This document shows positions 23,036 through 50,594 of a stretch of 64,000 nucleotides of DNA, piece after piece. The notes beneath the pieces are model-generated. The model had not been told where the DNA came from and did not search any database. It worked only from the letters and a program-made list of their open reading frames with translations. The DNA is taken from assembly GCA_003278125.1 (NCBI GenBank), contig QCGX01000007.1, positions 418 through 64,417 on the forward strand. The letters are read 5' to 3'. The first letter of the stretch is position 1; the number at the start of each line of letters is the position of its first letter. The translations under genes and the position numbers were made by a program. The DNA is from Pelagibacteraceae bacterium AG-390-C22. GTDB lineage: Bacteria; Pseudomonadota; Alphaproteobacteria; Pelagibacterales; Pelagibacteraceae.

Positions 23036-23682
23036 TATTTTTTCTTTTTTCTTTTATAATTTTTAACATCAATTTGGGGTGATCTTGTGATCGCTAATGA
23101 ATTTTTTTTAACATTTCTAGTAATCACAGATCCTGCACCAATTGTAGAATTTTTTTCTAATTTAACAGGAGCTACTAAAGATGAATTAGAACCTACAAAA
23201 ACATTATCAGATATTTTGGTTTTATGTTTTTTAACTCCATCATAATTACAAGTTATTGTACCCGCTCCTATATTAGAATTTTTTCCTATTATTGTATCGC
23301 CAATATAGGAAAGATGATTTATTTTTGAGTTAGTGTTGATTGTCGCTTTTTTTGTTTCAACAAAATTTCCAATCTTAGCATTAGATTTTAAAATAGTGCC
23401 CGGTCTCAATCTTGCATATGGTCCTACTACTACATTCTTTTCAATTTTAGTTCCTTCGATGTGGGTAAAAGATTTTATATAAGCATTGTCTCCAATTTTT
23501 ACTTTTGAACCAATCACAACGTAGGGTTCAATAGTTACATTTTTTCCAAAAATAGTATCTTTAGATAAATAGATGCTTTCCGGCGCGATTAAATTTACTC
23601 CTTTTGAAAGAGCTTTATTTCTAAGTTTTTCCTGCACTGCTCTATAAGCATAAGCTTTTTTTAATTTATTATTTGTATTCAT
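23035..23682 (-). CDS. Glucosamine-1-phosphate N-acetyltransferase: stand-alone C-terminal (LbetaH) half of GlmU
   Basis: 215 aa. It starts in the helical arm that links the two GlmU domains and continues through hexapeptide repeats (NHLSYIGDTIIGKNSNIGAGTITCNYDG). No uridylyltransferase domain is present, and a divergent gene starts 70 bp upstream. Confidence 0.8.
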   Translation of the reverse strand: MNTNNKLKKAYAYRAVQEKLRNKALSKGVNLIAPESIYLSKDTIFGKNVTIEPYVVIGSKVKIGDNAYIKSFTHIEGTKIEKNVVVGPYARLRPGTILKSNAKIGNFVETKKATINTNSKINHLSYIGDTIIGKNSNIGAGTITCNYDGVKKHKTKISDNVFVGSNSSLVAPVKLEKNSTIGAGSVITRNVKKNSLAITRSPQIDVKNYKRKKKK

Positions 23683-23752: not shown

Positions 23753-24415
23753 ATGACTCAAATTTACACAATTCTTTTTGATTTAGACGGAACTTTAGTT
23801 GATACCGCTCCAGATTTGATGGATGCACATAACCATGTAATGAAAAAATTTGGACATAAAGAAAAAAAATTATCTGACATTAAATCTTTAGCAGGTAAAG
23901 GTGCTTGGGTAATGATGCAAAGATCCTTTAGGCAAGAAATAGAAAATGAAAAATTGAAAAAAGAAATGACTAAAGAGTTTGTTGATTTCTATTCTCAAAA
24001 TATTGATCGAGGTAGTAAGCCAATCAATGGTGTAATGGAATTTTTAAAATGGGCTAAAAGTAAAAATATTTCCATGGCCGTTTGCACTAATAAACAGGAG
24101 CGTCTGGCGGTTGATTTATTAAAAAAATTAAAAATGTATGATTATTTTGAATACATTGCTGGTTCAGATACTTTTTCATTCAATAAACCGGATCCTAGGC
24201 ATTTAACAAATGTAGTTGAAATCATTCAAGGTGATATAAAAAAAACAATAATGATTGGAGATAGTGAAGTTGATGGAAAATCAGCAGAGAATGCGAACAT
24301 ACCTTTTGTTTTAGTAAAAGATGGTTACACTGAAAAATCATCTGAAGAGATCAAACACGATGAGCTAATCAAAGATTTTAAAAATTTTGATAAAATAATT
24401 GAAAAATATTTATGA
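23753..24415 (+). CDS. gph: HAD-superfamily phosphatase (phosphoglycolate phosphatase-like)
   Basis: FDLDGTLVDT motif I, CTNK motif II, and GDSEVD motif IV. Confidence 0.75.
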   Translation: MTQIYTILFDLDGTLVDTAPDLMDAHNHVMKKFGHKEKKLSDIKSLAGKGAWVMMQRSFRQEIENEKLKKEMTKEFVDFYSQNIDRGSKPINGVMEFLKWAKSKNISMAVCTNKQERLAVDLLKKLKMYDYFEYIAGSDTFSFNKPDPRHLTNVVEIIQGDIKKTIMIGDSEVDGKSAENANIPFVLVKDGYTEKSSEEIKHDELIKDFKNFDKIIEKYL

Positions 24416-25011
24416 TAAATTTTGCTTTATTTTCTGCTTTATCAGCATTCTATTTTACAATGTTTATAACCCCGGGACCCAATAACGCAATGCTAACTAC
24501 TTCAGGAATGAAGTTTGGTTTTATTAAAACATTACCTCACCTAATAGGTATTCCTTTGGGCCATATATTTCAAATTGCTTTAGTATGCTTTGGTTTTGCA
24601 AACCTTTTTCTTATTTACCCTCAAATACAAGTTTATATGAAAATATTATGTTTCTTATATTTGCTTTATCTAAGTTGGAAAATGATTGGTTCTTTTAGTC
24701 TTGATAAAAAAGATTCAGGAAGACCTTTAAAATTTTATGAAGCATCACTCTTTCAATTTATAAATCCTAAAGCATGGTCTATCGCAATTGCTGTAGCATC
24801 AGGATTTTTTCCAACAGAGGAGAATATCTTTATTGGCATTTCATTTGTAACTATAACTGCTGCGATTATATGTTTTCCTTCTATAAGTTTGTGGGCTCTT
24901 TTTGGAAGTGGATTAAGAGCATTTATCAACAATGAAAAAATAAAAAAAATGACAGAATATTTTCTTGCTTTGCTATTAGTTTTAACTGGATTATTTATTT
25001 TAATTAAATAA
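24412..25011 (+). CDS. LysE/RhtB family amino-acid exporter
   Basis: 199 aa with six TM helices, an N-terminal TPGPNN motif and FINPKAW. ATGA overlap with gph. Confidence 0.8.
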   Translation: MINFALFSALSAFYFTMFITPGPNNAMLTTSGMKFGFIKTLPHLIGIPLGHIFQIALVCFGFANLFLIYPQIQVYMKILCFLYLLYLSWKMIGSFSLDKKDSGRPLKFYEASLFQFINPKAWSIAIAVASGFFPTEENIFIGISFVTITAAIICFPSISLWALFGSGLRAFINNEKIKKMTEYFLALLLVLTGLFILIK

Positions 25012-25052
25012 TCTTTGATTTTTGTACCCCCCTCTAATATAAGTCTGTTGAA

Positions 25053-25949
25053 ATGCATTTCACAAAAAAAAGCGCATTAGAAAAAAGATCAGATTTTGTA
25101 AAAAAATTACAATCTAAAAAGTTATTGAGATTTCCTGGCGCCTACAACCCTTTATGTGCAAAACTAATTTCTGAGATAGGTTTTGATGGAGTTTATATTT
25201 CAGGTGGAGTGATGTCCAACGATTTGGGTCTACCTGATATTGGCCTTACAACTTTAGATCATGTTAGTTATAGAGCTAATCAAATTAGTCGAGTCACTGA
25301 CTTACCTACCATAGTCGATGCCGATACTGGCTTTGGTGATTGTAAAAAAACAATATCTACATTTGAAAATAAGGGATTAGCTGGATGTCATATAGAAGAT
25401 CAAATAGCTGAAAAAAGATGCGGACATTTGGATAATAAGGAATTAATTACAAAAGAAGAGATGGTAAAAAAAATCAAAGAATCTGTTATCTCAAGAAATG
25501 ATAAAAATTTTTTAATTATTGTAAGAACTGATGCAAATACTGTTGAGGGAATCGACAAAACATTAGATAGAATTAAGGCTTACGAAGACGCTGGAGCGGA
25601 TATGATTTTTCCTGAGGCAATGAAAGATGAAAAAGAATTTGAAAAAGTAAGAAATATTTCAAAAGGATATTTATTAGCTAACATGACTGAATTTGGAAAA
25701 TCAAAGCTTTTAAATAAAAAAGAATTAGAAAATTTAGGTTATAATTTAGTTATTTATCCTGTCTCTACTCAAAGATTAGCAATGCAGAATGTTGAGGTGG
25801 GACTAAAATCAATATTTAAAGATGGAGACCAAAACAATATTATTAATAAAATGCAAACTAGAAAAAGGTTGTACGAATTAGTAGAATATGAGAAGTACAA
25901 TACCCCAGGGAAAAAAATTACAGATTTTTCAACTGAAGGGCATGAATAA
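25053..25949 (+). CDS. prpB: 2-methylisocitrate lyase (ICL/PEP mutase family)
   Basis: Family signature EDQIAEKRCGH, and DADTGFG. Adjacent to a citrate-synthase homologue. Confidence 0.8.
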   Translation: MHFTKKSALEKRSDFVKKLQSKKLLRFPGAYNPLCAKLISEIGFDGVYISGGVMSNDLGLPDIGLTTLDHVSYRANQISRVTDLPTIVDADTGFGDCKKTISTFENKGLAGCHIEDQIAEKRCGHLDNKELITKEEMVKKIKESVISRNDKNFLIIVRTDANTVEGIDKTLDRIKAYEDAGADMIFPEAMKDEKEFEKVRNISKGYLLANMTEFGKSKLLNKKELENLGYNLVIYPVSTQRLAMQNVEVGLKSIFKDGDQNNIINKMQTRKRLYELVEYEKYNTPGKKITDFSTEGHE

Positions 25950-27073
25950 TGAGTGAAGAAATAAAAAAAGGATTATTAGGAATTGTTGTTGATGAAACAA
26001 CAATTTCTCATGTTGTGCCCGAACTAAGTACCCTTACTTATCGAGGTTATACGGTACAAGAATTATGTGACAAATGTGATTTTGAAGAAGTCGCATACTT
26101 AGTTTTAAACGGCGACCTACCAAATAAAAAACAATTAAAAAAATTTATTAAAGAAGAAAGATCAGAAAGAAAACTGTCTAAACAAATTTTAAAGAACATT
26201 CAGTCTATGCCAAAAAATGCTCATCCCATGGATGTTATAAGAACTTGCGTTAGTTTGATGGCTCTAGAAGATAAAGACACTAAAGATAATTCTCCTAAAG
26301 CTAATATGAGAAAAACTATGAGAATTTTTGCTAAAACTCCTACAGCAGTTTCGGCTTATTTTAGATATAGAAAAGGTAAAAAAATCATTTCACCTAGTAA
26401 AAATTTATCATTTTCAGAGAACTTTTTCAAAATGATGTTTAATAAAGTACCAGATAAAGAAATTGTCAGGGCTTTTGATATATCTCTGATTTTATACGCG
26501 GAACATAGCTTCAACGTTTCAACTTTTACAGCTAGAACTATAACAAGTAGTTTATCAGATTTGCACGGAGCAATAACAGGTGCGATAGCTTCATTGAAGG
26601 GGCCATTACATGGCGGCGCTAATGAAGCTGTGATGCACATGATGAAAGAGATAGGGAAACCTGAAAAAGCTAAAGCTTGGATAGAAAATGCTTTAGCTAA
26701 GAAAAAAGTTGTAATGGGTTTTGGCCATAGAGTTTATAGAACTGGTGACTCAAGAGTTCCAACTATGAAACATTACATGTTTAAAGTTGCAAAACTTTTA
26801 AAAAAAGAAAAATACACTAAAATGTATGAAATTTTAGAGAAAGTAATGCTAGAAAGAAAAAACATACATCCTAATGTTGATTTCCCATGCGGCCCTACTT
26901 ATTACATGATGGGAATCGATATAGATTTTTATACTCCAATATTTGTAATGTCCCGAATTACTGGCTGGTCAGCTCATATCATGGAACAACATACTTCGAA
27001 TAAATTAATTAGGCCTTTATCTAAATATAAAGGAAAAGAAGTAAGAGAAGTAATGCTGTTAAACCAAAGATAA
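25949..27073 (+). CDS. prpC: 2-methylcitrate synthase / citrate synthase family
   Basis: GPLHGGANE and the citrate synthase signature GFGHRVYRTGDSR. 374 aa short type. TAATG overlap with prpB. Confidence 0.85.
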   Translation: MSEEIKKGLLGIVVDETTISHVVPELSTLTYRGYTVQELCDKCDFEEVAYLVLNGDLPNKKQLKKFIKEERSERKLSKQILKNIQSMPKNAHPMDVIRTCVSLMALEDKDTKDNSPKANMRKTMRIFAKTPTAVSAYFRYRKGKKIISPSKNLSFSENFFKMMFNKVPDKEIVRAFDISLILYAEHSFNVSTFTARTITSSLSDLHGAITGAIASLKGPLHGGANEAVMHMMKEIGKPEKAKAWIENALAKKKVVMGFGHRVYRTGDSRVPTMKHYMFKVAKLLKKEKYTKMYEILEKVMLERKNIHPNVDFPCGPTYYMMGIDIDFYTPIFVMSRITGWSAHIMEQHTSNKLIRPLSKYKGKEVREVMLLNQR

Positions 27074-28249
27074 ATGATTGACAAAATATTTTCTGAAACG
27101 ATAAAAATTTTATCTGATCTTATAAAATTTCAAACAACATCAGGTGCTTCGAATCTTGAGCTAATTAAATATTGTGAAAAAAAATTAGAAAAAGCTGGAG
27201 CAACATCCTTTAAAACTTTTAATGATTCCGGCTCTCAAGCTAATTTATTTTCGACAATTAAAGGTAAAGATAATTCTAATAATAAAGGAATTATCTTATC
27301 AGGACATACAGATGTAGTTCCTGCTGTATCTAGCGAATGGACTTCTGATCCTTATGTAGCTAGGGAAAAAGATAATAAAGTTTATGGTCGAGGAACATGT
27401 GATATGAAAGGTTTTATTGCTTGCACTTTAGCTGTTGCACCTTTATTTGCTTCTAAAAAACTAAAAGCACCAATACATTTTTCTTATACCTTTGATGAAG
27501 AAACTGGTTGTCTAGGAGCTCCATTAGTCTTGGCTGATTTAAAAAAAAGAAATATTAATTTCTCAGCCTGTATAATTGGAGAACCAACAAATATGAAAAC
27601 AATAAATGCCCATAAAGGTTACAATGAATACATAACTCATTTTACTGGCTTATCTGGACACGCTTCAAATCCTGAAAGTGGTGTTAGCGCTATAGAATAT
27701 GCGATTCAATACAGCAATAAGCTTTTAGAATTAAGAGATGAATTGAAAAAAAGAAACTCAAGGAAAACTATTTTTTCTCCATCATACTCTACTCTTCAAA
27801 TAGGAAAAATCTCTGGAGGATTAAGTGCAAATGTAATCGCAGATCAATGTTCTCTAGAATGGGAAGTAAGACCAATCAATAAAGAAGATGGTGAATTCAT
27901 CAGTAATAATATTGATGCTTATGCAAAAGATATTTTAATACCAAAAATAAAAAAGAATAATCCTAAAGGAGATATAAAGAAAGAAGTTGTCGGTGAAGTA
28001 GTTGGTTTCAATAAAAAAGAGTCGTCAGAGGCTGTAAATCTAGTTTGTAATCTTACCGGAGATAATGAAAAAAATACGATGTCATTTGGTACTGAGGCAG
28101 GTTTATTTCAGAACTCAGGAATTAGCACTGTCATTTGTGGGCCAGGATCTATTAAGCAAGCCCACACAGTGGACGAATATATCACGTTTGATCAATTAAA
28201 GAAGTGTCTTACTATGCTTGTTTCTCTTCAAGAGAAAATGACTAATTAA
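27074..28249 (+). CDS. M20 family deacylase (acetylornithine deacetylase ArgE-like)
   Basis: LSGHTDVVP, WTSDPY, GRGTCDMKG and GEPT motifs. Confidence 0.75.
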   Translation: MIDKIFSETIKILSDLIKFQTTSGASNLELIKYCEKKLEKAGATSFKTFNDSGSQANLFSTIKGKDNSNNKGIILSGHTDVVPAVSSEWTSDPYVAREKDNKVYGRGTCDMKGFIACTLAVAPLFASKKLKAPIHFSYTFDEETGCLGAPLVLADLKKRNINFSACIIGEPTNMKTINAHKGYNEYITHFTGLSGHASNPESGVSAIEYAIQYSNKLLELRDELKKRNSRKTIFSPSYSTLQIGKISGGLSANVIADQCSLEWEVRPINKEDGEFISNNIDAYAKDILIPKIKKNNPKGDIKKEVVGEVVGFNKKESSEAVNLVCNLTGDNEKNTMSFGTEAGLFQNSGISTVICGPGSIKQAHTVDEYITFDQLKKCLTMLVSLQEKMTN

Positions 28250-29009: not shown

Positions 29010-29657
29010 ATGATAGAAAAAGTTAAACAGACAACCTCTGAAAAGTTATTATTAGCTGTATTTATTATTCTAGGAATTGTTGCTTTTTATATTTTTTTAA
29101 TTTTACCTCAAAAATGTTTATTTATTAAGAGTTACGATCCACAAGAAATTCGTTTTGATAATCCAGAAAATATTGCAGTTCTAAATGTTAATTGTGGAAA
29201 TGTTATCATTAAACTTTATCCAGACATTTCCCCTAAATCAGTTGAAAGATTTAGAATGTTAATAAACTCAGGTAAATATAATAATATTGCTTTTCATAGA
29301 GTTGTAAAAAATGTCATCGTTCAAGCAGGAGATCTAGAGTTTGGGAGGAAAGATAATCTCAATTATCTTTATATAGGAACCGGAAAATCTGGATTTGGAA
29401 CTATTAAATCAGAACTCAATGATGAGATTGAATTTAGAGCAGGAACAGTTGGTATGGCGAGAACAAATAAACTTAATACTGAAGATAGTCAGTTTTTTAT
29501 TCTTCTTGAAGATGCTCCTTTATTTAAAGGAGAATATACTCCTATTGGCCAAGTTGTTTATGGTTTGGAAGTTTTAGATACAATTGCAGATGATTACAAA
29601 AGAGAATATGTCCTTCGACCTGATTTTATTAATAGCTTTAAATTGCTTATCGATTAA
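29010..29657 (+). CDS. Membrane-anchored cyclophilin-type peptidyl-prolyl isomerase
   Basis: One N-terminal TM helix, then a cyclophilin core (FHRVVKNVIVQAGD, GTVGMARTN, SQFFI). Confidence 0.85.
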   Translation: MIEKVKQTTSEKLLLAVFIILGIVAFYIFLILPQKCLFIKSYDPQEIRFDNPENIAVLNVNCGNVIIKLYPDISPKSVERFRMLINSGKYNNIAFHRVVKNVIVQAGDLEFGRKDNLNYLYIGTGKSGFGTIKSELNDEIEFRAGTVGMARTNKLNTEDSQFFILLEDAPLFKGEYTPIGQVVYGLEVLDTIADDYKREYVLRPDFINSFKLLID

Positions 29658-30501
29658 TTCCTCTTATTCTTTCTGACCTTCGTCTTAAAAGTTCTGCAGC
29701 AACTAGGACTAATGTAGAAAGTAAAATTAAACAAGTAGCAACTGATAATATGGTTGGACTTAATTGTTCCCTTAATCCCGTCCACATTTGAATTGGAATT
29801 GTTGTATTATCTAACCCAGCTAAAAATAAAACAATTACAACTTCATCAAATGAAGTTACGAAAGCAAATAATGCACCTGATATAACGCCTGGTAATATTA
29901 GTGGCAAAGTTATTTTCATGAAAGTATTTACAGGATTACTTCCTAAGCTTGCTGCGGCTCTTGTAACGCTATGATCAAACCCAGATAAAGTTGCTGTTAC
30001 AGTAATTACCACAAAAGGAGTTCCTAATATTATATGAGCTAAAACTATTCCAGTGTGTGTTGCTGCTAAGCCTGCTTTAGCCATAAAAAAGAAAATTGCT
30101 ACTCCTGAAATAATTAAAGGAACAATCATAGGAGAAATTAAAGTTGCCATAATAATTCCTTTGTAGGGCATATATCTACTGCTTAGTCCTAATGCTGCAA
30201 CTGTTCCAAGAATAACTGCTCCGATTGTCGCAAATATTGCTATAAAAAAACTATTTTTTGCTGCTAATCCCCAAGGATTCTTTGTTCCATAAACCATATC
30301 CTTGTACCATCTTAAAGAGAAAGCATCTGGGTCTAGCCTCTTCATTCCATCTGTTATTACTAAAAATTCTTCTGCATTAAACGATAATGGAAAAATTACA
30401 AACAAAGGAGCAATTAAAAAAAAGAATACACATCCGCAAATAAATAAATATATATAATGCCATACTCTATAATGTGGTTCTGTATATTTTGGTAAAGCCA
30501 T
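29647..30501 (-). CDS. ABC transporter permease (PotC/PotI-like)
   Basis: Six TM helices. EAA loop AAASLGSNPVNTFMKITLP. Confidence 0.85.
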   Translation of the reverse strand: MALPKYTEPHYRVWHYIYLFICGCVFFFLIAPLFVIFPLSFNAEEFLVITDGMKRLDPDAFSLRWYKDMVYGTKNPWGLAAKNSFFIAIFATIGAVILGTVAALGLSSRYMPYKGIIMATLISPMIVPLIISGVAIFFFMAKAGLAATHTGIVLAHIILGTPFVVITVTATLSGFDHSVTRAAASLGSNPVNTFMKITLPLILPGVISGALFAFVTSFDEVVIVLFLAGLDNTTIPIQMWTGLREQLSPTILSVATCLILLSTLVLVAAELLRRRSERIRGINR

Positions 30502-30503
30502 AA

Positions 30504-31757
30504 TTATCCTAATTTAATATTATCTATTCCAACTAATTTGTTATAAATCCAATAGACAGCTAAAACCCCTGTTAACAACATTAGTCCCATTGCTGAGGCA
30601 AAACTCCAATCTAAAGTATATTTCATATGATAAGCGATTTGATTACTTATAAGTGTCCCTGAAGCTCCTCCAACTAATTCTGGAGTAATGTAGTAACCTA
30701 TCGCAAGAATAAAAACTAAAAGAGAACCAGCCCCTATTCCTGGTATTGTTAATGGAAAATATACCTTCCAAAATGTAATAAATGGTGTTCCTCCAAGTGA
30801 TTTACCTGCTCGAACTAAACTTGGTGAAATAGTTTTCATTACACTATAAAGAGGCAAAACCATGAATGGTAACAAAATTTGAGTCATAGCAATATAAGTG
30901 CCTGTTTCATTGTACATCATCACTAATCTTTTATCGTCTGCTACCAAACCAATCCAAACTAAAAAATCATTAACTACTCCTTGTTGTTGGAGCAAAATCA
31001 TCCAGCTAGCTGTTCTTACAAGGAGAGATGTCCAAAAAGGTAGAAGAACGCAAATCATCAGTAGATTGCTATACTTCATTGGAAGAGTTGCTAATAAATG
31101 CGCTATTGGGTAAGCCATCAAAAAACAAAATAGGGTGACATAAAAAGCTATTTTTAAAGTTCTAACCCATAATTTTTTATAAATTCTTCGATCTTCTTCA
31201 ACTTGAACTATTTTTCCATCTTCATTTTGATACATGTCGACGCCCTTTAAATATTTAGAATATGAATAAGCTGGCGCACGTCTTTGAATTGCTCTCCAAT
31301 ATTCAACGTTTCCCCATCTTTCATGGACAGCCATAATTTGCTCTTTATAATTTCCTTCTTCAAAAGATTTTGATTTTCGTCTTAATTTTTTAATAATACT
31401 TTTAAAACCATTTTTTTCAAAGTTAAGCTGAGTTGATAATTTTCCCTCTCTCTCTTCTTCGGTCAATTTTCGAAAATCAAAATAAAAAGCTTCGAATACT
31501 TTTTCTGATGGAAGTTCTTTGCCATCCCAATCTTCCATTGCTTTGAATGTTTTTGGAAGCGCATTAGTTACCATTCGGTCATCAACACTATTAAAAAGCA
31601 TTCCAACTATTGGGGAAATGTAAACGATTAATAGAAAAAACAATAAAGGTGCCACTAATAAAAAAGCCTTAAGTTTATTTCTTTTCTCAACTTTCTTAAG
31701 GCTTACCTCTAGAGGTATTCCATCAGTTGTTAAAATTTTTTGTGTTTCACTGCTCAT
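30504..31757 (-). CDS. ABC transporter permease (PotB/PotH-like) with a roughly 140 aa hydrophilic insertion after TM1
   Basis: EAA loop RAGKSLGGTPFITFWKVYFP. 417 aa, against about 285 aa for plain PotB. Residues about 55-195 are charged and non-membrane. Confidence 0.8.
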   Translation of the reverse strand: MSSETQKILTTDGIPLEVSLKKVEKRNKLKAFLLVAPLLFFLLIVYISPIVGMLFNSVDDRMVTNALPKTFKAMEDWDGKELPSEKVFEAFYFDFRKLTEEEREGKLSTQLNFEKNGFKSIIKKLRRKSKSFEEGNYKEQIMAVHERWGNVEYWRAIQRRAPAYSYSKYLKGVDMYQNEDGKIVQVEEDRRIYKKLWVRTLKIAFYVTLFCFLMAYPIAHLLATLPMKYSNLLMICVLLPFWTSLLVRTASWMILLQQQGVVNDFLVWIGLVADDKRLVMMYNETGTYIAMTQILLPFMVLPLYSVMKTISPSLVRAGKSLGGTPFITFWKVYFPLTIPGIGAGSLLVFILAIGYYITPELVGGASGTLISNQIAYHMKYTLDWSFASAMGLMLLTGVLAVYWIYNKLVGIDNIKLG

Positions 31758-31766
31758 AAATAAAAA

Positions 31767-31789
31767 GGGCGGTTAGTTAATAACCGCCC
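31767..31789 (-). terminator. Intra-operon Rho-independent terminator/attenuator downstream of the binding-protein gene
   Basis: GGGCGGTTA / TAACCGCCC 9 bp stem with a 5 nt loop. On the minus strand it is followed by TTTTTATTT. It lies between the SBP stop (31826) and the permease start (31757). Confidence 0.6.
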
Positions 31790-31825
31790 CTAATATAATA
31801 TATCATCAAAGTCTTTAAAAACTAA

Positions 31826-32944
31826 TTAAAGACCAGATTTCATAGCTTCCCATTTTTCGCCAATTTCTGTACCGTTGTCAGCCCAGAATAATGCATCAAT
31901 TAGGATATAGCTTTTTGTATTGTTTGGATGAGTTGGCATTTGAGACATCATGTTTGTCTTACCATCTTTATACCAAGGCTCACCTGCTTCAATAACTTTT
32001 AGAGAAGATTTTCTCCAAGGTGCGTATGCGATGTACTTCGCAGAACCAGCTAAACCTTCTGTGCTAGTCATTTCTGCAATAGCTTTCATAGCATCAGCTT
32101 CGTTTGGTCCACCTTTAACAACTACCATGTATTGGTAATCTAAACCTTGAGCATCCCAAACTTGTTTTAATGGTGCGCCTTCTCCAATTTCTGCGTTGAA
32201 GAATCTACCATTCCAACCTGTTGCCATTACAACTTCACCCTGCATAAGTAGTTCTGGTGGTTTAGCACCAGCTGACCAAAATACGCATCCGCCGTTAGGG
32301 TCTGAACAAAGCGCTTTCATCTTATCCATTGCTTGTTGAAGACCTTTTTCCTTTGAAAGTTTTTTGTAGATATTTTTTCCACCTTTACCTGGCTTAGTAC
32401 CAGAAGCTGCTAATGCCATCTCTAGATTGTGCATAGCACTTTTGTAAACGCCTCTTTTACCTGGCCATGTTTTAGTGTCAAAGAAATCTTTTATAGTTTT
32501 TGGTTTTTTGCTACCAATTTTTGCATCATGGTAAGCATACGTCCAAGAATATAAAATATTTCCTACAGCACATTTACTAGGCATTGACGTAAAGAAGTCT
32601 TTGCTCGCTTTAGTTCCATCTGGAGCTGGCGGAAAGTCTTTGTCAAAATTAAATTTAACAAATAAACCTTCGTCACATCCATTGATAGTGTCCATAGCGA
32701 AAACGTCCATTATGTCCCAAGTAATTTTTCCTGCTGCTTTTTGAGCTTTAACTTCAGATAATCCACCTGAATAGTCTACCCAATTAATAGGTATACCTAA
32801 TTTTTTTGCGGCTGGATCACCGTAACCTAATTTTTGACTTTCTGTATAAGCTCCACCCCAAGATGCAACTGTAACTGCATAAGAAGTTGAAGAAATTGAA
32901 AGTGCAAAAACTAAAGTAAGTAATAGTTTACTTAATTTTCTCAT
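31826..32944 (-). CDS. Periplasmic substrate-binding protein, PotD/PotF-type (SBP family 1)
   Basis: Signal peptide MRKLSKLLLTLVFALSISSTSYA, then VASWGGAY. 372 aa. Noticeably higher G+C than neighbouring genes, which suggests high expression. Strong GGAGGGG SD. Confidence 0.85.
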   Translation of the reverse strand: MRKLSKLLLTLVFALSISSTSYAVTVASWGGAYTESQKLGYGDPAAKKLGIPINWVDYSGGLSEVKAQKAAGKITWDIMDVFAMDTINGCDEGLFVKFNFDKDFPPAPDGTKASKDFFTSMPSKCAVGNILYSWTYAYHDAKIGSKKPKTIKDFFDTKTWPGKRGVYKSAMHNLEMALAASGTKPGKGGKNIYKKLSKEKGLQQAMDKMKALCSDPNGGCVFWSAGAKPPELLMQGEVVMATGWNGRFFNAEIGEGAPLKQVWDAQGLDYQYMVVVKGGPNEADAMKAIAEMTSTEGLAGSAKYIAYAPWRKSSLKVIEAGEPWYKDGKTNMMSQMPTHPNNTKSYILIDALFWADNGTEIGEKWEAMKSGL

Positions 32945-33063
32945 TTATTCCCCTCCGTTTAAACGTTTATTATTCTTTTATTACAACAATTAACAAAAAT
33001 TAAGTCAACCTCTGATTTGTGCTAATTCTTGTTTAAAATTAAGATTTTTTGATTGAATCAATC

Positions 33064-34158
33064 TCAGATTGATTTTGGATCTAAAGCTCTAGCGTCATGG
33101 CTGTTCCAGCCAACATTAATATCATTACCTGGTTTTATATCCATTCTCGCAGAGCTGTTAGGAACTTTTAAAATGAATTCTCTGTTGCCCAACAAATTTA
33201 ATCTAACTCTTGCGTGATCTCCGTGATAAATAACTTCTTCTATTTTTCCCTTATGTTTGTTATCCATTTTTTCATCAGGATCAATAATCGCTCTTTCAGG
33301 TCTTAAAGAAACTTTTGTTTTTTCTCCTTTTGTTTTGACTCTTATAGGATTAGAAATTATTTCAGTCCCAGTATCTAATTTAACTTTACATTTTCCTCCA
33401 GAGATATCTGTGACTTGTCCGGAAAACGTATTGTTCTCACCAATAAATTCTGCAACAAATGAGTTTACAGGTTCTTCATATAATTTATCTGGGCTTGATA
33501 ATTGTTGCACTTTTCCATCATTAAAAACTGCAATTCTACTCGACATAGTAAGAGCTTCGCTTTGATCGTGAGTAACATAAACTACTGTTACGCCAATATT
33601 TTCATGAATGTGTTTAATTTCATACTGCATACTTTCTCTTAAATTTTTATCTAAAGCTCCTAACGGTTCATCCATTAAAACTAATTGAGGATCAAATACT
33701 AGAGATCTTGCAACAGCGACTCTTTGTTGTTGTCCTCCTGATAGTTGATTGGGCATTCTTTTTTCAAATCCAGATAAAGAAACCATAGATAAAGCTTTAT
33801 CAACTTTTTTATCAATATCATCTTTTGAAAGTTTTCTAACTTTTAAAGGAAAAGCTAAATTTTCATAAACTGTTAGATGAGGAAACAAAGCGTAATTTTG
33901 AAAAACCATTCCTATCCCTCTTTTGTGTGGAGGAATTCTAGAAATAGGTTTTGAGTCTAAATAAATTTCACCATTAGTAGGCGTTTCAAAACCTGCTAAC
34001 ATCATTAGGCAAGTTGTTTTTCCTGAACCAGATGGCCCCAACATTGTAATAAATTCGCCTTCATTAATGTCAAGATTCAGGTCTTTAACGACTAAAACTT
34101 TACCGTCATAACTTTTGTCTACCTTATCAAATTTTACAAAACTTTTTGAAGACGTCAT
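33064..34158 (-). CDS. ABC transporter ATP-binding protein (PotA-like, with a C-terminal TOBE-type domain)
   Basis: Walker A GPSGSGKTT, signature LSGGQQQR, Walker B LVLMDEP. Confidence 0.92.
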   Translation of the reverse strand: MTSSKSFVKFDKVDKSYDGKVLVVKDLNLDINEGEFITMLGPSGSGKTTCLMMLAGFETPTNGEIYLDSKPISRIPPHKRGIGMVFQNYALFPHLTVYENLAFPLKVRKLSKDDIDKKVDKALSMVSLSGFEKRMPNQLSGGQQQRVAVARSLVFDPQLVLMDEPLGALDKNLRESMQYEIKHIHENIGVTVVYVTHDQSEALTMSSRIAVFNDGKVQQLSSPDKLYEEPVNSFVAEFIGENNTFSGQVTDISGGKCKVKLDTGTEIISNPIRVKTKGEKTKVSLRPERAIIDPDEKMDNKHKGKIEEVIYHGDHARVRLNLLGNREFILKVPNSSARMDIKPGNDINVGWNSHDARALDPKSI

Positions 34159-34205
34159 ATAATGATTATTTAAAGCATTTAAGAAAATTTATTTCAAGGT
34201 TTTTA

Positions 34206-35372
34206 TTATTTAATATGTAATTCTCTAGATAAATTGCAGAATAATTCTGAACCACTTTCAGTTACTCTGATTGCTTCGCTAGCTTCTACGCCCCAATCAC
34301 CGAATTGCATCACTGCAATCATATGAAAAGTAACGTTAGGTTGTAAAATGGTTTTATCACCTTTCAGTATATTAAATGTTTGTTCTCCCCAATCTGGAGG
34401 GTAACCAATACCAATTGAATATCCGGTTCTAGAGTCTTTTTTAATTTTATATTTATCTAAAACTCCCCAAAATTTTTGCGCAACATCATCAACAGTATTT
34501 CCAGGTCTTGTAACAGCAATACCAGCATCTAATGCTTCATTGGTAGCTTTCATAGTATCTATTTTTTTTTGATCTTTTTCACCTAATAAAACTGTACGAG
34601 CCATAGGGCAGTGATATCTTTTATAAGCACCGGCAATTTCAATAATTGTTGCATCACCTGAAACAAACTTTTCATCTGTAGCGGTTAAATGGGAGGCCGA
34701 AGTTCCTTTTCCAGTCGGTAGTAGAGTTGTAATACTTGGATAATCTCCACCGAATTCATCTGTGCCATTAAATAAAGCTTTTTGAATATCTGCTACAGCA
34801 TCGCATTGTCTTACTCCAGGATTAATACTTTTAAAAGCCATTTTCATTCCACTCTCAACTATACGAGCTGCTGATTGCATTAATTTAATTTCTGAATTTG
34901 ATTTAACAACTCTTACCCAGTTAACTAATCTTTCAGCATCCTTAAGTTTTGCGTTAGGTAAACCTTTTTTAAGAGTTTCATAGCAAAAAGCTGTAAAGTA
35001 ATGACTGTCCATCTCTAAACCAATATTTAGACTATCCCATTTTCTGTTTGTTATTATTTCAGCTAAATACTTATAAGGATGTAGAGGCCAAGTATGAATG
35101 TACTTTTCATGGTACTCTATAATATTTTTATCCTGTAAATATGTTTTAATGTATGCGCCTCCTCCATCCTGCGCTCTTACAAAGCAAATAGGCTCGTCTT
35201 CATTTATGTGAACTAGGACACATTGGGCATAATAAAAAGACCAAGCATCATAACCTGTTAAGTAATTCATATTAGCTGGGTCGTGAGAAACTAATAGATC
35301 AATGCCTTTTTTTTGCATACTAATCTTTACTTTTTTTAAACGGTCTTTGTACTCTTGTTTTTCAAAAAGCAT
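34206..35372 (-). CDS. M24-fold (creatinase/prolidase) hydrolase, EutD/DoeA ectoine-hydrolase-like
   Basis: N-terminal creatinase_N-like GIDLLVSHDPANMNYLTGYDAWSFYYAQCVLV. The pita-bread domain has GDATIIEIAG, GYSIGIGYPPDWGE and TFHMIAV in place of the GDxxxxDxG / GHGIG / TIEP ligand motifs. Confidence 0.7.
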   Translation of the reverse strand: MLFEKQEYKDRLKKVKISMQKKGIDLLVSHDPANMNYLTGYDAWSFYYAQCVLVHINEDEPICFVRAQDGGGAYIKTYLQDKNIIEYHEKYIHTWPLHPYKYLAEIITNRKWDSLNIGLEMDSHYFTAFCYETLKKGLPNAKLKDAERLVNWVRVVKSNSEIKLMQSAARIVESGMKMAFKSINPGVRQCDAVADIQKALFNGTDEFGGDYPSITTLLPTGKGTSASHLTATDEKFVSGDATIIEIAGAYKRYHCPMARTVLLGEKDQKKIDTMKATNEALDAGIAVTRPGNTVDDVAQKFWGVLDKYKIKKDSRTGYSIGIGYPPDWGEQTFNILKGDKTILQPNVTFHMIAVMQFGDWGVEASEAIRVTESGSELFCNLSRELHIK

Positions 35373-36125
35373 TTAGTTTTCTAAAAGTTTTCCGTATCCT
35401 TTAATTGAAGATTTGTATCCAGTTGATCTAATACTATCCCAAATTAAAGTTTGATTGCTAGATAATACTGGCTTTTCTATTTTATTTTCTAATTTTTCTA
35501 GAATATTTAATACCGGTAAAGCGGTGCAAGAAATAAACAAAGCATCTGCATTTTTTATTTCTAACTTTGAGGATATTTCTAAAATATAATTAGGATCAAC
35601 ATTAGCAAATTCAGAGTCTAAATTTAAGTTTAAACTAGCAAGCGATGAAACCTCTATATCCTTTAGGTTAAAGTAATCTAAGATTATTTTGTTTACCTTC
35701 TCTGGGTAAGGAGTAAATAAAGCAATCTTTTTAATATTCATAAGTTTAAAAGCTTTAATTGCAGAAGTTACCGGCGTAGTTACATAACTACCGGGTTTAC
35801 CCAGTAATATTCTTTCTTTTACTTTATCCTCACCTATAGCAATTGTTCCTGATGTGCAGCCGTAAGCGATGGTGTTTACTTTTTCATTAGGCAATATTTT
35901 ATTTGATACAGACTCTAGATCATCTTGCATCTTTAATAGGTTTTCTGTTGTTAGTGGATTTTGGTTATGAATACGATTAACAAAAATATCTATAGACAAA
36001 TTTTTATAAATATTATTAAAATCCTTCTCTATAGTTTGGTCAGTTGATAATGCAATTAAACCTACTCTTGGCTTTAAATCTTTTTTAAACCTCGGAGTAA
36101 AATTTTTATTAATATCTATAGACAT
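35373..36125 (-). CDS. Asp/Glu/hydantoin racemase-fold protein (maleate isomerase / arylmalonate decarboxylase / EutA-like)
   Basis: RVGLIALSTDQTIEKDF, and two catalytic-position cysteines (AYGCTSGT and FISCTALP). 250 aa. Confidence 0.7.
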   Translation of the reverse strand: MSIDINKNFTPRFKKDLKPRVGLIALSTDQTIEKDFNNIYKNLSIDIFVNRIHNQNPLTTENLLKMQDDLESVSNKILPNEKVNTIAYGCTSGTIAIGEDKVKERILLGKPGSYVTTPVTSAIKAFKLMNIKKIALFTPYPEKVNKIILDYFNLKDIEVSSLASLNLNLDSEFANVDPNYILEISSKLEIKNADALFISCTALPVLNILEKLENKIEKPVLSSNQTLIWDSIRSTGYKSSIKGYGKLLEN

Positions 36126-36175: not shown

Positions 36176-36793
36176 TTAATTGTTCAATTTTGCTAACATA
36201 TTTTCACTATCGATCTCTTCTAATAAATAGTTGCTGTCTAATAGTTTTTTTTTTACTTCTTCGAGCTTTTTACCTTCTTTGAAAAGACCGTCAAAATGTT
36301 TTTTTTCAAAAAAAATTTCTTTAATAATTATTTGATTTAAATTTATTGATTTTAGTATCTTATATTCAGCTCCTTCAACGTCTAGCATCAATTTATCTAT
36401 TTTTTTAATTGAATATTTTTTTATTAAACTTGAAAAACTTAAACACTTAATATTGAGTATTTCTATATCATTTTCGGAAACTAAAAATCTTTTGCTTCGG
36501 TGTTTTAATAAATGAGTTTTATCAAATGAGCCTATTCCACTTGCCCAGTGTTTTTTTAACTTACCAATTGAATCTCTTTTAATAAAATAGAAAGGTACTA
36601 ACTCATCTTTGTCACTTATTGCGGATTCCTCAATAATTATATTGTTAAAATTTTTAATATTATCTCTTAATTCAACTAAATTGTAAGGAACCGGCTCTAT
36701 TAGAATATTTTTTTTGTTTTTAAATTTTTTTAATTCTTCTTGTAGCCAAAAACCAGTATGAGAGCCTATAGAGACTAGTCCATACTCTTGCAT
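36176..36793 (-). CDS. FkbM-family SAM-dependent methyltransferase
   Basis: IGSHTG..., LMLDVEGAEYKIL block typical of Methyltransf_21/FkbM. Confidence 0.7.
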   Translation of the reverse strand: MQEYGLVSIGSHTGFWLQEELKKFKNKKNILIEPVPYNLVELRDNIKNFNNIIIEESAISDKDELVPFYFIKRDSIGKLKKHWASGIGSFDKTHLLKHRSKRFLVSENDIEILNIKCLSFSSLIKKYSIKKIDKLMLDVEGAEYKILKSINLNQIIIKEIFFEKKHFDGLFKEGKKLEEVKKKLLDSNYLLEEIDSENMLAKLNN

Positions 36794-47971: not shown

Positions 47972-48529
47972 ATGGCTTTAACAAAAACACCAATTTGTGA
48001 CTTCGGTAAAAAAGCTGAAAACTTTAAGCTCAAATCTATAAATGGTAAATCAGTCTCTTTGGAGGATATTAAAGGAAAAAACGGAACCTTAATAATGTTT
48101 ATTTGCAATCATTGTCCTTACGTTAAAGCTATTATTAAAGATTTAGTTGAAGATTGTAAAAAATTGAAATTGGAAGGAATTAATTCTGTAGCTATTATGT
48201 CTAATGATACAAAGAACTACCCAGAGGACTCCTTTGACAAAATGATAGATTTTGCAAAAGATAATGAATTTGGCGACTTAAATTATCTAATTGATGAAAC
48301 TCAAGAAGTTGCAAAAAAATATGGAGCGGTATGTACTCCAGACTTTTTTGGATACAATAAGAATTTAGAACTTCAATACAGGGGTAGAATAAGAGAGCTA
48401 AAAAATTTAAAACCTGTAAGAAATGGAGATAGCGATTTGAAATTAGCTATGAGGATGATTGGAAAGACTCAAAAAGGTCCAATGGAACAAATTCCAAGTA
48501 TGGGATGTAATATTAAGTGGTTTAATTAA
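47972..48529 (+). CDS. Thioredoxin-fold (AhpC/TSA-like redoxin) protein
   Basis: FICNHCPYV CxxC-type centre within a redoxin-sized 185 aa protein. Confidence 0.7.
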   Translation: MALTKTPICDFGKKAENFKLKSINGKSVSLEDIKGKNGTLIMFICNHCPYVKAIIKDLVEDCKKLKLEGINSVAIMSNDTKNYPEDSFDKMIDFAKDNEFGDLNYLIDETQEVAKKYGAVCTPDFFGYNKNLELQYRGRIRELKNLKPVRNGDSDLKLAMRMIGKTQKGPMEQIPSMGCNIKWFN

Positions 48530-50544: not shown

Positions 50545-50594
50545 TATTTAATCTGCGTATATTTATTATCCTAGTATAGTCAAAAAACATTAAT

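What the first reader, a model, noticed from the sequence alone, without database searches (positions are those of the whole stretch)
29647..36125. Pot-type ABC importer in one operon with EutA-like and EutD/DoeA-like enzymes: candidate uptake-and-ring-opening module for an ectoine-like or other cyclic/amidino N-compound
Six co-directional minus-strand genes appear in this order: racemase-fold protein (35373-36125), M24 hydrolase (34206-35372, abutting with 0 nt), ATPase, binding protein and two permeases. From memory of the ectoine-utilisation (eut/doe) families, the pair resembles EutA (Asp/Glu racemase fold with two Cys) and EutD/DoeA (ectoine hydrolase; blocks LTGYDAWSFY and YPPDWGE).

The known ectoine systems use Ehu (family-3 SBP) or TRAP transporters and also carry eutB/eutC/eutE (doeB). 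Here the transporter is polyamine/opine-type (family-1 SBP starting VASWGGAY), and eutB, eutC and eutE are absent. The substrate is therefore probably not handled as in the described pathway and may be a different compatible solute or guanidino/amidino compound.

An ArgE-like M20 deacylase lies 1.4 kb beyond the operon end (27074-28249). It could in principle supply a deacetylation step.
Basis: partly seen in the sequence, partly recalled or inferred. Interest (0 to 1): 0.7.

Follow-up and report, generated by a model that had tools for sequence, protein, structure and literature searches.

The report
SAR11 osmolyte importer with ectoine-hydrolase-like enzymes
In the ocean's most abundant bacterium (SAR11), the very highly expressed "polyamine" transporter, which experiments show takes up glycine betaine and DMSP, is always preceded by two enzyme genes that look like the ring-opening step of ectoine breakdown, so SAR11 may consume ectoine or a related nitrogen-rich osmolyte, though nobody has tested it.

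Summary
Six co-directional minus-strand genes sit exactly where stated. The window is SAR11 (Pelagibacteraceae).

- **Transporter:** it is the well-known SAR11 "PotABCD". Its binding protein is 72% identical to solved structure 8JV1. The HTCC1062 potD product (SAR11_1336) was shown to bind glycine betaine and DMSP, not polyamines.
- **M24 protein:** it is not a prolidase. It lacks the metal ligands, best matches ectoine hydrolase DoeA (43% identity; TIGR02993 480 bits, cut-off 613), and groups beside an EutD that lies in a true eutB-eutC cluster.
- **Racemase-fold protein:** it best matches EutA (210 bits, cut-off 318) and keeps two invariant cysteines.
- **Conservation:** the order eutA-like, M24, potA, potD, potB, potC holds in nearly all of 80 Pelagibacteraceae species genomes, while the upstream neighbours vary.
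- **Transcription:** potD has its own conserved promoter and terminator.
- **New clue:** lineages with a divergent transporter allele carry a creatinase or an arginine:glycine amidinotransferase homologue fused to the front of the operon.

Best reading (about 0.5): an uptake-and-ring-opening module for ectoine-type cyclic amidines. Main rival (about 0.3): another amidino or guanidino zwitterion. Nothing has been tested biochemically. I rate it a new variant of a known kind.

The parts
35373..36125 (-). EutA-like protein of the Asp/Glu-racemase, maleate-isomerase and arylmalonate-decarboxylase fold (250 aa). It is the first gene of the conserved module.
   Evidence: Best hit is TIGR02990 ectoine_eutA at 209.6 bits, below the 318 cut-off; Pfam Amdase 74.5 bits. 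The best solved structure is maleate isomerase, and both of its catalytic Cys positions align. C90 and C200 are invariant in 75 SAR11 orthologues down to 44% identity.
34206..35372 (-). EutD/DoeA-like M24 hydrolase (388 aa), predicted to be metal-independent and a candidate ectoine-type amidine ring-opening enzyme.
   Evidence: TIGR02993 scores 479.8 bits (cut-off 613) against PepQ 70. PDB hits: DoeA 6TWK 343 bits, prolidase 70, creatinase 48. Identity to H. elongata DoeA is 43%. The prolidase metal-ligand positions are E245, P256 and no His, the same pattern as in DoeA. Of 46 family-conserved columns, 42 are kept. The gap to the eutA-like gene is 0 nt.
33064..34158 (-). ABC transporter ATPase of the PotA type, with a TOBE_2 domain.
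   Evidence: TIGR01187 potA scores 372.2, above the 355.6 cut-off; Pfam ABC_tran plus TOBE_2. The gap to the M24 gene is 47 nt here, with a median of 44 nt across 76 loci.
32980..33008 (-). Sigma-70-like promoter TTGACT-17 nt-TGTAAT in the potA-potD spacer, followed by the ribosome-binding site GGAGGGG at 32950-32956.
   Evidence: Located. The identical motif is present in 44 of 72 related loci. potD of HTCC7211 is the strongest SAR11 transcription start site in Red Sea mdRNA-seq (PMC5069720).
31826..32944 (-). Periplasmic solute-binding protein, the SAR11 'PotD' (family SBP_bac_8), with signal peptide MRKLSKLLLTLVFALSISSTSYA.
   Evidence: It scores 580 bits and is 72% identical to PDB 8JV1-8JV4. 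It has no NCBIfam match. The next solved relatives bind GABA, mannopine or agropine. The HTCC1062 potD product SAR11_1336, the presumed orthologue, binds glycine betaine (Kd 2 nM), DMSP and other osmolytes (PMC11485210).
31765..31791 (-). Intrinsic-terminator-like GC-rich hairpin (GGGGCGGTTA..TAACCGCCC plus a T-run) directly after potD.
   Evidence: Found with an 11-bp stem and 6 GC pairs. It is conserved in 62 potD-potB spacers, median MFE -19.4 kcal/mol, in a genome of about 30% GC.
30504..31757 (-). Permease, PotB/PotH-like, carrying an N-terminal extension of about 190 aa (417 aa in total).
   Evidence: PotB 164 bits and PotH 163 bits, both matching residues about 181-409 only. The length of 417 aa recurs in 53 loci.
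29647..30501 (-). Permease, PotC/PotI-like (284 aa).
   Evidence: PotC 136.5 bits. The gap to potB is 2 nt.
27074..28249 (+). ArgE-type M20 deacetylase. It is a candidate, not a demonstrated, N-alpha-acetyl-diaminobutyrate deacetylase, and it lies outside the operon.
   Evidence: NF005710 scores 449.5 (cut-off 412) and TIGR01892 359.9 (cut-off 297.7). It abuts prpC and follows prpB on the plus strand. It is 42% identical over 343 aa to the M20 that follows EutD-EutB in the true ectoine operon L086.

Best explanation
This is the conserved SAR11 osmolyte-uptake locus. [quoted passage not shown]

Two catabolic genes head it:
- an EutD/DoeA-family M24 hydrolase that has lost the M24 metal ligands (so is probably metal-independent);
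- an EutA-family two-cysteine racemase-fold protein, translationally coupled to the hydrolase.

Proposed mechanism, with status of each step:
1. Ectoine, hydroxyectoine or a very similar cyclic amidine zwitterion is bound by the abundant periplasmic binding protein and imported (inferred).
2. The DoeA-like enzyme adds water across the cyclic amidine and opens the ring to N-alpha-acetyl-2,4-diaminobutyrate (inferred).
3. The EutA-like enzyme performs an epimerisation or isomerisation on the substrate or product. Its reaction is also unknown in canonical pathways (inferred).
4. A non-clustered ArgE-type M20 deacetylase and general transaminases carry the carbon and nitrogen on to aspartate semialdehyde (inferred).

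Shown here: the family relationships, the loss of metal ligands, the conserved gene order, and the separate promoter and terminator of potD.

Inferred: the substrate, the coupling to this transporter, and every downstream step.
For: **Organism and transporter**
- The organism is SAR11. An orthologue 94% identical is named Pelagibacterales. All 80 best genome loci are Pelagibacteraceae, and at least 534 species genomes hold a relative.
- The SBP is 72% identical to 8JV1. A 97%-identical relative of 8JV1 lies in the same Amdase-M24-ABC-SBP-permease-permease cluster.
[quoted passage not shown] SAR11 has a single Pot system (PMC8437039).

**The M24 protein**
- DoeA is by far the best family and structure match, and the metal-ligand pattern is the same as in DoeA.
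- 42 of 46 family-conserved columns are kept.
- In an NJ tree the SAR11 clade sits next to P0122. P0122 scores similarly low (472 bits) yet lies directly after EutB and EutC.
- P0124 (469 bits) sits in a haloarchaeal cluster with M20, PALP, a class-III aminotransferase and a BCCT transporter. Sub-cut-off scores are therefore normal for divergent ectoine-context members.

**The pairing and its conservation**
- The partner gene's best match is EutA. The pair recurs in the nearest non-SAR11 relative, P0121.
- The six-gene order is kept across 80 species, while the upstream neighbour varies among at least 10 different genes in both orientations.
- The same enzyme pair is kept with two transporter alleles that are only about 40% identical in the SBP.

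**Downstream step and ecology**
- M20 deacetylases replace EutE in real ectoine operons.
- Ectoine is among the top phytoplankton exometabolites (PMC13012070).
Against: - Both enzymes fall below NCBI's equivalog cut-offs: 479.8 against 613, and 209.6 against 318.
- No eutB, eutC, eutE, doeC or doeD lies in the window or in the 80 loci.
- A Trp that is nearly invariant in the family, directly after the HLT motif, is Ala in 63 of 81 SAR11 sequences.
- The accessory genes found at the operon front in some lineages are creatinase, an amidinotransferase homologue, and an extra M24 with a CN-hydrolase. They point to guanidino or ureido compounds rather than ectoine.
- The word ectoine does not occur in the main text of the SBP study, and its ligand tables were not available.
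- SAR11 genomes are tightly packed and highly syntenic, so adjacency alone is weak evidence.
- potD is transcribed from its own promoter.
Confidence: 0.5

Rival explanations
1. The conserved M24 and EutA-like pair acts on a different amidino, guanidino or ureido zwitterion, for example guanidinoacetate, a creatine or creatinine relative, or an unrecognised cyclic guanidine. The module would supply glycine, sarcosine or arginine nitrogen to glycine-auxotrophic SAR11.
For: - A creatinase (515.7 bits to 1CHM) or a homologue of arginine:glycine amidinotransferase (291 bits to 1JDW) is translationally coupled upstream of the eutA-like gene, 5 loci each.
- These additions go with the divergent transporter allele: 7 of 8 loci against 1 of 61, Fisher p = 6e-8.
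- L034 inserts an unassigned M24 and a CN-hydrolase between the pair.
- L054 couples the amidinotransferase homologue directly to the DoeA-like gene, with no EutA-like gene and no transporter.
- M24 creatinase is a precedent for amidine-carbon hydrolysis.
- A 'creatinase, core SG1a' SAR11 gene cluster is listed in the older literature (PMC3686209).
- The W-to-A change lies next to the HLT motif.
- Both proteins score below the equivalog cut-offs.
Against: - The protein is only 22% identical to the true SAR11 creatinase and scores 48 bits to 1CHM against 343 bits to DoeA.
- The true creatinase is a separate gene in the same operon, so the conserved M24 is not itself creatinase.
- The EutA-like partner has no role in any known guanidino-acid pathway.
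- The nearest characterised or context-assigned relatives are all ectoine-linked.
Confidence: 0.3
2. The enzyme pair and the transporter are merely neighbours in a compact, highly syntenic genome. The enzymes serve an internal or unrelated function, and their substrate is not imported by this transporter.
For: - SAR11 spacers are short everywhere. The unrelated genes fkbM and nrdAB lie on the same strand, with fkbM only 50 nt upstream.
- potD has its own promoter and terminator.
- P0121 and L054 carry the M24 gene without an adjacent transporter.
Against: - The upstream flank is highly variable while the six genes stay together.
- The linkage survives replacement of the transporter by an allele about 40% identical, and survives two enzyme-pair types.
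- Lineage-specific catabolic genes are inserted exactly at this operon head and co-vary with the transporter allele.
- potA, which the transporter needs, follows the M24 gene by only about 44 nt.
Confidence: 0.15
3. The public annotation is right as it stands: an Xaa-Pro dipeptidase or creatinase next to a spermidine/putrescine importer.
For: - Names given by public sources include 'M24 family metallopeptidase', 'Xaa-Pro dipeptidase/ectoine hydrolase' and 'putative spermidine/putrescine transport system substrate-binding protein'.
- SAR11 cultures do take up polyamines (PMC8437039).
Against: - At most one of the five prolidase metal-ligand positions keeps a carboxylate.
- PepQ scores 70 bits against a cut-off of 630.
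- The SBP has no PotD or PotF model match.
- The HTCC1062 potD product was shown to bind osmolytes rather than polyamines (PMC11485210).
Confidence: 0.03

Closest known systems
Ectoine/hydroxyectoine catabolic clusters: eutABCDE of Sinorhizobium meliloti and Ruegeria pomeroyi, doeABCD of Halomonas elongata (EutD/DoeA structures 6TWJ, 6TWK, 6YO9)
   Same: - It has homologues of EutA and EutD side by side, in the same order (A before D).
- The M24 fold lacks the metal ligands, as in DoeA.
- It is fused to a binding-protein-dependent importer, as in ehuABCD-eutABCDE.
- The M24 protein is 43% identical to H. elongata DoeA.
   Different: - It has no eutB, eutC or eutE, and no ssd, atf, doeC or doeD.
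- It has no EnuR or AsnC regulator.
- The transporter has an SBP_bac_8 'Pot-type' binding protein, not EhuB (family 3) or a TRAP system.
- Both enzymes score below the equivalog cut-offs.
- The Trp after the HLT motif is mostly replaced by Ala.
SAR11 PotABCD, SAR11_1336 (Clifton et al. 2024, Nature; PDB 8JV1-8JV4)
   Same: It appears to be the same transporter. The SBP is 72% identical to 8JV1, and close relatives of 8JV1 sit in the same gene cluster.
   Different: The papers I could read treat the binding protein and transporter alone (searched for ectoine, eutA, eutD, doeA, M24). They do not discuss the two upstream enzyme genes or the second, divergent transporter allele.
Creatinase (creatine amidinohydrolase, M24; P. 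putida 1CHM)
   Same: It shares the creatinase/prolidase N-terminal domain plus the M24 pita-bread fold. It shares hydrolysis at an amidine-type carbon without the dinuclear metal centre. A creatinase gene occurs in the same operon in some SAR11 lineages.
   Different: It scores only 48 bits to 1CHM. It carries the DoeA-type WSFY block where creatinase has CSFGR.
Hydantoin-utilisation modules (hydantoin racemase, ring-opening hydrolase, N-carbamoylase)
   Same: The logic is similar: a racemase-fold enzyme plus a ring-opening hydrolase. The L034 variant adds a CN-hydrolase, as in carbamoylase pathways.
   Different: The hydrolase is an M24 enzyme, not a dihydropyrimidinase-type amidohydrolase. 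The resemblance is one of logic only and was not tested.

Membership tests
EutD/DoeA ectoine hydrolase (NCBIfam TIGR02993) | Whole-protein score at or above the curated equivalog cut-off of 613 bits | tested here: not met
   The window protein scores 479.8 bits, and other SAR11 variants 446 and 461. P0122, which sits in a true eutB-eutC context, also fails at 472 bits. Failing the cut-off is therefore not decisive.
EutD/DoeA ectoine hydrolase (NCBIfam TIGR02993) | Closest solved structure and closest family is DoeA rather than prolidase or creatinase | tested here: met
   DoeA 343 bits, prolidase 70 and creatinase 48; 43% identity over 385 aa.
EutD/DoeA ectoine hydrolase (NCBIfam TIGR02993) | Loss of the five M24 metal ligands in the DoeA pattern, and retention of the family-conserved columns | tested here: met
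   E245 and P256 replace D209 and D220 of prolidase 1PV9, and there is no His ligand, identical to H. elongata DoeA. Of 46 columns conserved at 90% or more, 42 are retained; the exception of note is W to A at position 231.
EutD/DoeA ectoine hydrolase (NCBIfam TIGR02993) | Genomic linkage to a deacetylase (EutE/DoeB) and to other eut or doe genes | tested here: not met
   None was found in the window or in 80 loci. Only an ArgE-type M20 lies 1.4 kb away in another operon.
EutD/DoeA ectoine hydrolase (NCBIfam TIGR02993) | Hydrolysis of ectoine or hydroxyectoine to N-alpha-acetyl-diaminobutyrate | not testable with these tools
   Needs an enzyme assay.
EutA (NCBIfam TIGR02990) | Score at or above the 318-bit cut-off | tested here: not met
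   209.6 bits for the window protein, 194 for other SAR11 types and 164 for the P0121-linked one. EutA is still the best-scoring family in every case.
EutA (NCBIfam TIGR02990) | Racemase/isomerase-type pair of catalytic cysteines | tested here: met
   C90 and C200 align with the two catalytic Cys of maleate isomerase and are invariant in 75 orthologues.
Spermidine/putrescine ABC importer PotABCD | ATPase and permeases of the Pot subfamily | tested here: met
   potA TIGR01187 scores 372.2, above 355.6. PotB/PotH and PotC are the best hits for the permeases but fall below their equivalog cut-offs.
Spermidine/putrescine ABC importer PotABCD | Binding protein of the PotD/PotF type that binds polyamines | tested here: not met
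   No NCBIfam model matches the SBP. Its solved relatives bind GABA, mannopine or agropine. The HTCC1062 potD product was shown experimentally to bind glycine betaine and DMSP (PMC11485210).
Canonical ectoine importers (EhuABCD; UehABC/TeaABC TRAP) | EhuB-type family-3 SBP or a TRAP DctP-type SBP | tested here: not met
   The SBP is Pfam SBP_bac_8. For contrast, the true EhuB in L086 scores 223.6, above 190.9.
Creatinase (EC 3.5.3.3) | High similarity to characterised creatinases | tested here: not met
   48 bits to 1CHM, and 22% identity to the SAR11 creatinase of L010, which itself scores 515.7 bits to 1CHM.
ArgE acetylornithine deacetylase subfamily (ORF 27074-28249) | Score above the curated cut-offs | tested here: met
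   NF005710 scores 449.5, above 412; TIGR01892 scores 359.9, above 297.7. Activity on N-acetyl-diaminobutyrate was not tested.

The most novel reading that the evidence does not exclude
The conserved EutA-like and DoeA-like pair is not an ectoine system at all. It is the core of an unrecognised SAR11 pathway for an abundant amidino, guanidino or cyclic ureide zwitterion.

In this reading the head of the operon is a plug-in site. Lineages add matching first-step enzymes there (creatinase, an amidinotransferase homologue, or an extra M24 with a CN-hydrolase) together with a second transporter allele. This would define a new dissolved-organic-nitrogen currency and a new route to glycine, sarcosine and arginine in the ocean's most abundant heterotroph.
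Probability: 0.25. Interest if true: 0.8.

Novelty: new variant of a known kind. Interest (0 to 1): 0.6.

Why it matters
SAR11 is the most abundant heterotroph in the surface ocean. This binding protein is among its most abundant proteins and transcripts.

Ectoine was recently ranked among the largest identified phytoplankton exometabolites (PMC13012070). The known consumers are copiotrophs with eut/doe clusters. The ectoine-catabolism surveys I could read do not mention SAR11.

If the two genes at the head of the SAR11 osmolyte-importer operon open the ectoine ring, or hydrolyse another amidino osmolyte, then a large and unaccounted sink for nitrogen-rich osmolytes becomes assignable to a specific, globally countable gene pair. 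The claim is directly testable with existing cultures (HTCC1062, HTCC7211) and with proteins that have already been expressed.

It also corrects three public annotations:
- 'polyamine transporter'
- 'Xaa-Pro dipeptidase'
- probably the old 'creatinase, core SG1a' label.

Tried and rejected
- **Ordinary prolidase:** rejected. The metal ligands are missing and the PepQ score is 70 bits.
- **Creatinase:** rejected for the conserved M24. True creatinase is a distinct gene in some SAR11 genomes.
- **DMSP lyase DddP (M24):** considered because the transporter binds DMSP. The model scores 30.8 bits against a cut-off of 600, and there are no metal ligands.
- **Riboswitch or other known RNA upstream:** no Rfam family reached its gathering score anywhere in the window.
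- **Paper for PDB 8JV1-8JV4:** none is in the library, so its ligands remain unknown to me.
- **Supplementary ligand tables of Clifton et al.:** not held. The word ectoine is absent from the main text and from the preprint.
- **Mais et al. 2020 (DoeA active-site residues):** not held, so I could not compare named substrate-contact residues and used family-wide conservation instead.
- **HTCC1062 locus tags:** searches for SAR11_1335 and SAR11_1337 to 1339 found nothing. HTCC1062 itself was not among the 80 loci returned, so the identity 8JV1 = SAR11_1336 is inferred, not shown.
- **ArgE-like gene as part of the module:** rejected as an operon member, because it belongs with prpB-prpC and its adjacency is not conserved. 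Kept only as a candidate enzyme acting in trans.
- **Structure prediction:** not run. Only near-identical homologues could be submitted, and the sequence evidence was already unambiguous about the fold.
- **NJ tree:** it is star-like and has no support values, so I used it only for nearest-neighbour statements.

Full report
**1. The observation**

They are 35373-36125 (250 aa), 34206-35372 (388 aa, 0-nt gap to the first), 33064-34158, 31826-32944, 30504-31757 and 29647-30501.

The window has about 30% G+C. An orthologue of the M24 protein that is 94% identical is named Pelagibacterales by NCBI. All 80 best genome loci come from Pelagibacteraceae, and at least 534 species-level genomes hold a relative. 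The organism is therefore SAR11.

- The 250-aa protein hits TIGR02990 ectoine_eutA best (209.6 bits, cut-off 318), and Pfam Amdase.
- The 388-aa protein hits TIGR02993 ectoine_eutD/DoeA best (479.8 bits, cut-off 613). PepQ reaches only 70 bits.
- The ATPase passes the potA subfamily cut-off.
- The binding protein is SBP_bac_8 with no NCBIfam match.
- The permeases are PotB-like and PotC-like.

**2. What the transporter is**

The binding protein scores 580 bits against PDB 8JV1-8JV4, 'Spermidine/putrescine-binding periplasmic protein'. Identity is 72%. 8JV1 is itself 86% identical to the potD genes of loci L052 and L072, which lie in the same cluster. A 97%-identical relative, P0288, also lies in an Amdase-M24-ABC-SBP-permease-permease cluster.

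Three papers fix the identity and importance of this system:
- SAR11 has one Pot system, and its PotD is among the most abundant proteins detected (PMC8437039).
- Clifton et al. 2024 (PMC11485210) showed that SAR11_1336 (potD) does not have its annotated polyamine function. It binds glycine betaine (Kd 2 nM), DMSP and 'other osmolytes'. This matches the multifunctional glycine betaine transporter measured in vivo.
- In Red Sea mdRNA-seq, potD of HTCC7211 carries the strongest SAR11 transcription start site (PMC5069720).

I could not prove that 8JV1 is SAR11_1336 itself. No paper for it is held, and HTCC1062 was not among the returned loci.

**3. What the M24 protein is**

It is not a prolidase. 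I aligned it to P. furiosus prolidase 1PV9, whose metal ligands (from my own knowledge of that structure) are D209, D220, H284, E313 and E327. The window protein has E245 and P256 at the first two positions and no His ligand. H. elongata DoeA shows the same pattern.

Other comparisons agree:
- DoeA structures are the best PDB match at 343 bits, against 70 for prolidase and 48 for creatinase. Identity to DoeA is 43% over 385 aa.
- Of 46 alignment columns conserved at 90% or more in 19 non-SAR11 DoeA-like proteins, 42 are conserved in 81 SAR11 sequences.
- The notable exception is the Trp directly after the HLT motif. It is Ala in 63 SAR11 sequences, Trp in 14, His in 3 and Ser in 1.

The sub-threshold TIGR02993 score is not disqualifying:
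- Among family representatives, only P0123 passes the cut-off, at 636.7 bits.
- P0122 scores 472 bits, yet lies immediately after EutB and EutC.
- P0124 scores 469 bits and sits in a haloarchaeal cluster with M20, PALP, a class-III aminotransferase and a BCCT transporter.
- In a neighbour-joining tree (star-like, no support values), the SAR11 clade plus P0121 is sister to P0122.
- The second known ectoine-hydrolase type, NF038259, is more distant from canonical EutD than the SAR11 protein is.

**4. The EutA-like protein**

EutA is the best family for all three SAR11 sequences scored and for the partner of P0121, at 164-210 bits, always below the cut-off. Its closest structures are maleate isomerases. 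Both catalytic cysteines align. They are invariant (C90, C200) in 75 SAR11 orthologues that have diverged to 44% identity. This favours a two-base racemase or isomerase mechanism over an arylmalonate-decarboxylase-like one. The reaction of EutA itself is unknown even in canonical pathways (PMC5924519).

**5. Conservation and architecture**

In 80 Pelagibacteraceae species loci, the order eutA-like, M24, potA, potD, potB, potC is kept wherever the contig allows. The median gaps are 1, 44, 119, 68 and 2 nt.

The gene upstream of the eutA-like gene differs among at least ten types, in both orientations. The eutA-like gene is therefore the 5' boundary of a conserved module.

There are two enzyme-pair types (EutA-like identity to the window of 63-81% or 45-52%). 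There are also two transporter alleles (SBP identity of at least 68%, or about 40%). All four combinations occur.

Within the module, potD is its own expression unit:
- A TTGACT-17-TGTAAT promoter lies at window 33008-32980 and is present in 44 of 72 loci.
- A GC-rich terminator hairpin lies at 31791-31765 and is conserved in 62 loci.

The likely layout is [eutA-like, M24, potA], then [P-potD-terminator], then [potB, potC]. Co-transcription of the enzymes with potA is inferred from spacing only.

**6.

In loci with the divergent 'type B' transporter, an extra gene is translationally coupled to the front of the eutA-like gene, with a gap of 4 or -1 nt.
- One version is a creatinase, at 515.7 bits to P. 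putida creatinase (L010, L016, L017, L018, L021).
- The other is a homologue of L-arginine:glycine amidinotransferase, at 291 bits to human AGAT (L012, L014, L015, L019, L054).
- The association with type B is 7 of 8 loci against 1 of 61, Fisher p = 6e-8. This is not corrected for shared ancestry.
- L034 instead inserts an unassigned M24 and a CN-hydrolase between the eutA-like and DoeA-like genes.
- L054 has the amidinotransferase homologue directly before the DoeA-like gene, with no eutA-like gene and no transporter.

This shows that first-step catabolic enzymes for amidino compounds are recruited to this operon head and co-vary with the transporter. That supports functional coupling in general. 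It also keeps a non-ectoine amidino or guanidino substrate seriously in play for the conserved pair.

The conserved M24 is itself not creatinase. It is 22% identical to the SAR11 creatinase. An older listing of a 'Creatinase, core SG1a' gene cluster in SAR11 (PMC3686209) probably refers to this gene. That is my inference.

**7. Downstream steps**

No EutB, EutC, class-III aminotransferase or AstE/AspA-type deacetylase is present in the window or in the 80 loci.

The ArgE-like gene passes the ArgE cut-offs. It abuts prpC in a HAD, LysE, prpB, prpC, argE plus-strand operon. It neighbours the pot operon in only about 18 of 80 loci.

Its candidacy has some comparative support:
- In the bona fide ectoine operon L086 (EhuB 223.6, above 190.9; EutD 636.7, above 613; then an EutB-like gene), the next gene is an ArgE-type M20.
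- That M20 passes TIGR01892 (328.7, above 297.7) and is 42% identical to the window protein.
- NCBIfam also holds an M20-type N-acetyl-diaminobutyrate deacetylase model, DoeB2.

N-alpha-acetyl-diaminobutyrate is the lower homologue of N-acetylornithine (chemistry, my own knowledge).

**8. Literature**

Searches of the held library found no paper on ectoine catabolism in SAR11. SAR11 papers mention only 'ectoine transporters' from automatic annotation. The EutD phylogenomic surveys do not mention SAR11 in their text. JGI automatically names some orthologues 'ectoine hydrolase'. Ectoine is among the top phytoplankton exometabolites (PMC13012070).

**9. Verdict**

| Reading | Probability |
|---|---|
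| SAR11's osmolyte importer operon is headed by an EutA/EutD-type pair that opens ectoine-type cyclic amidines | about 0.5 |
| The pair acts on another amidino or guanidino zwitterion | about 0.3 |
| Mere adjacency, no functional link | about 0.15 |
| Public annotation correct as it stands | about 0.03 |

It is a new variant of a known kind: an ectoine-type catabolic bimodule stripped of eutB, eutC and eutE, and attached to a non-canonical, extremely abundant transporter. Interest is moderately high because of SAR11's abundance and because the claim can be tested directly.

Noticed in passing
L010, L016, L017, L018 at about 8039-9242 and L021 at 6-758 (partial, on a 2974-nt contig); L012, L014, L015, L019 (about 8144-9248): In SAR11 lineages with a divergent transporter allele (SBP about 40% identical), an extra gene is translationally coupled upstream of the eutA-like gene. 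It is either a creatinase (515.7 bits to 1CHM) or a homologue of arginine:glycine amidinotransferase (291 bits to human AGAT). The association with the allele is 7 of 8 loci against 1 of 61.
   Followed up: partly
L034 6592-10511: One lineage has eutA-like, an unassigned third M24 type (about 83 bits to both prolidase and creatinase), a nitrilase-superfamily CN-hydrolase, then the DoeA-like gene and the type-B pot genes. The layout recalls the logic of racemase, ring-opening hydrolase and carbamoylase.
   Followed up: partly
L054 4980-7261: The amidinotransferase homologue sits 5 nt before a DoeA-like M24 gene. There is no eutA-like gene and no transporter; cell-shape genes (rodA, mrdA, mreBCD) follow on the other strand.
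   Followed up: no
window 34680-34682 (M24 residue 231, after the HLT motif): A Trp that is nearly invariant in non-SAR11 DoeA-like proteins is Ala in 63 SAR11 sequences, Trp in 14, His in 3 and Ser in 1. This may mark a change in the substrate pocket.
   Followed up: partly
window 23753-28249 (+): The ArgE-type deacetylase is the last gene of a plus-strand run: a HAD phosphatase-like gene, a LysE-type exporter, prpB (methylisocitrate lyase), prpC (2-methylcitrate synthase) and argE-like. It abuts prpC with a 0-nt gap, an unexplained pairing.
   Followed up: partly
window 30504-31757 (-): The PotB-like permease is 417 aa. Only residues about 181-409 match PotB/PotH models. The N-terminal extension of about 190 aa (one predicted membrane helix plus a long hydrophilic stretch) recurs at the same total length of 417 aa in 53 related loci.
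   Followed up: no
window 55083-56123 (-), with neighbours 59115-60212 and 60175-61062: A single ORF fuses an S-adenosylmethionine decarboxylase domain to a spermidine synthase domain. Nearby lie an IF-2B-family gene (methylthioribose-1-phosphate isomerase-like) and a PNP_UDP_1 phosphorylase (MTA phosphorylase-like).
   Followed up: no
window 23035-23682 (-): This 215-aa ORF matches only the C-terminal acetyltransferase half of GlmU (profile positions about 223-452). No uridyltransferase half is adjacent, and glmS follows directly.
   Followed up: no
window 36176-36793 (-): An FkbM-family methyltransferase lies between nrdB and the eutA-like gene. Among the 80 related loci it was found only in L011, so it looks like a small insertion.
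   Followed up: no
window 1-6000, 48000-53000, 62000-64000: These stretches have very low G+C (22-26%). They are rich in glycosyltransferase genes (GT9, GT1/GT4, GT2) and sugar epimerase genes, and also hold ORFs without Pfam matches. They are probably cell-envelope hypervariable regions.
   Followed up: no
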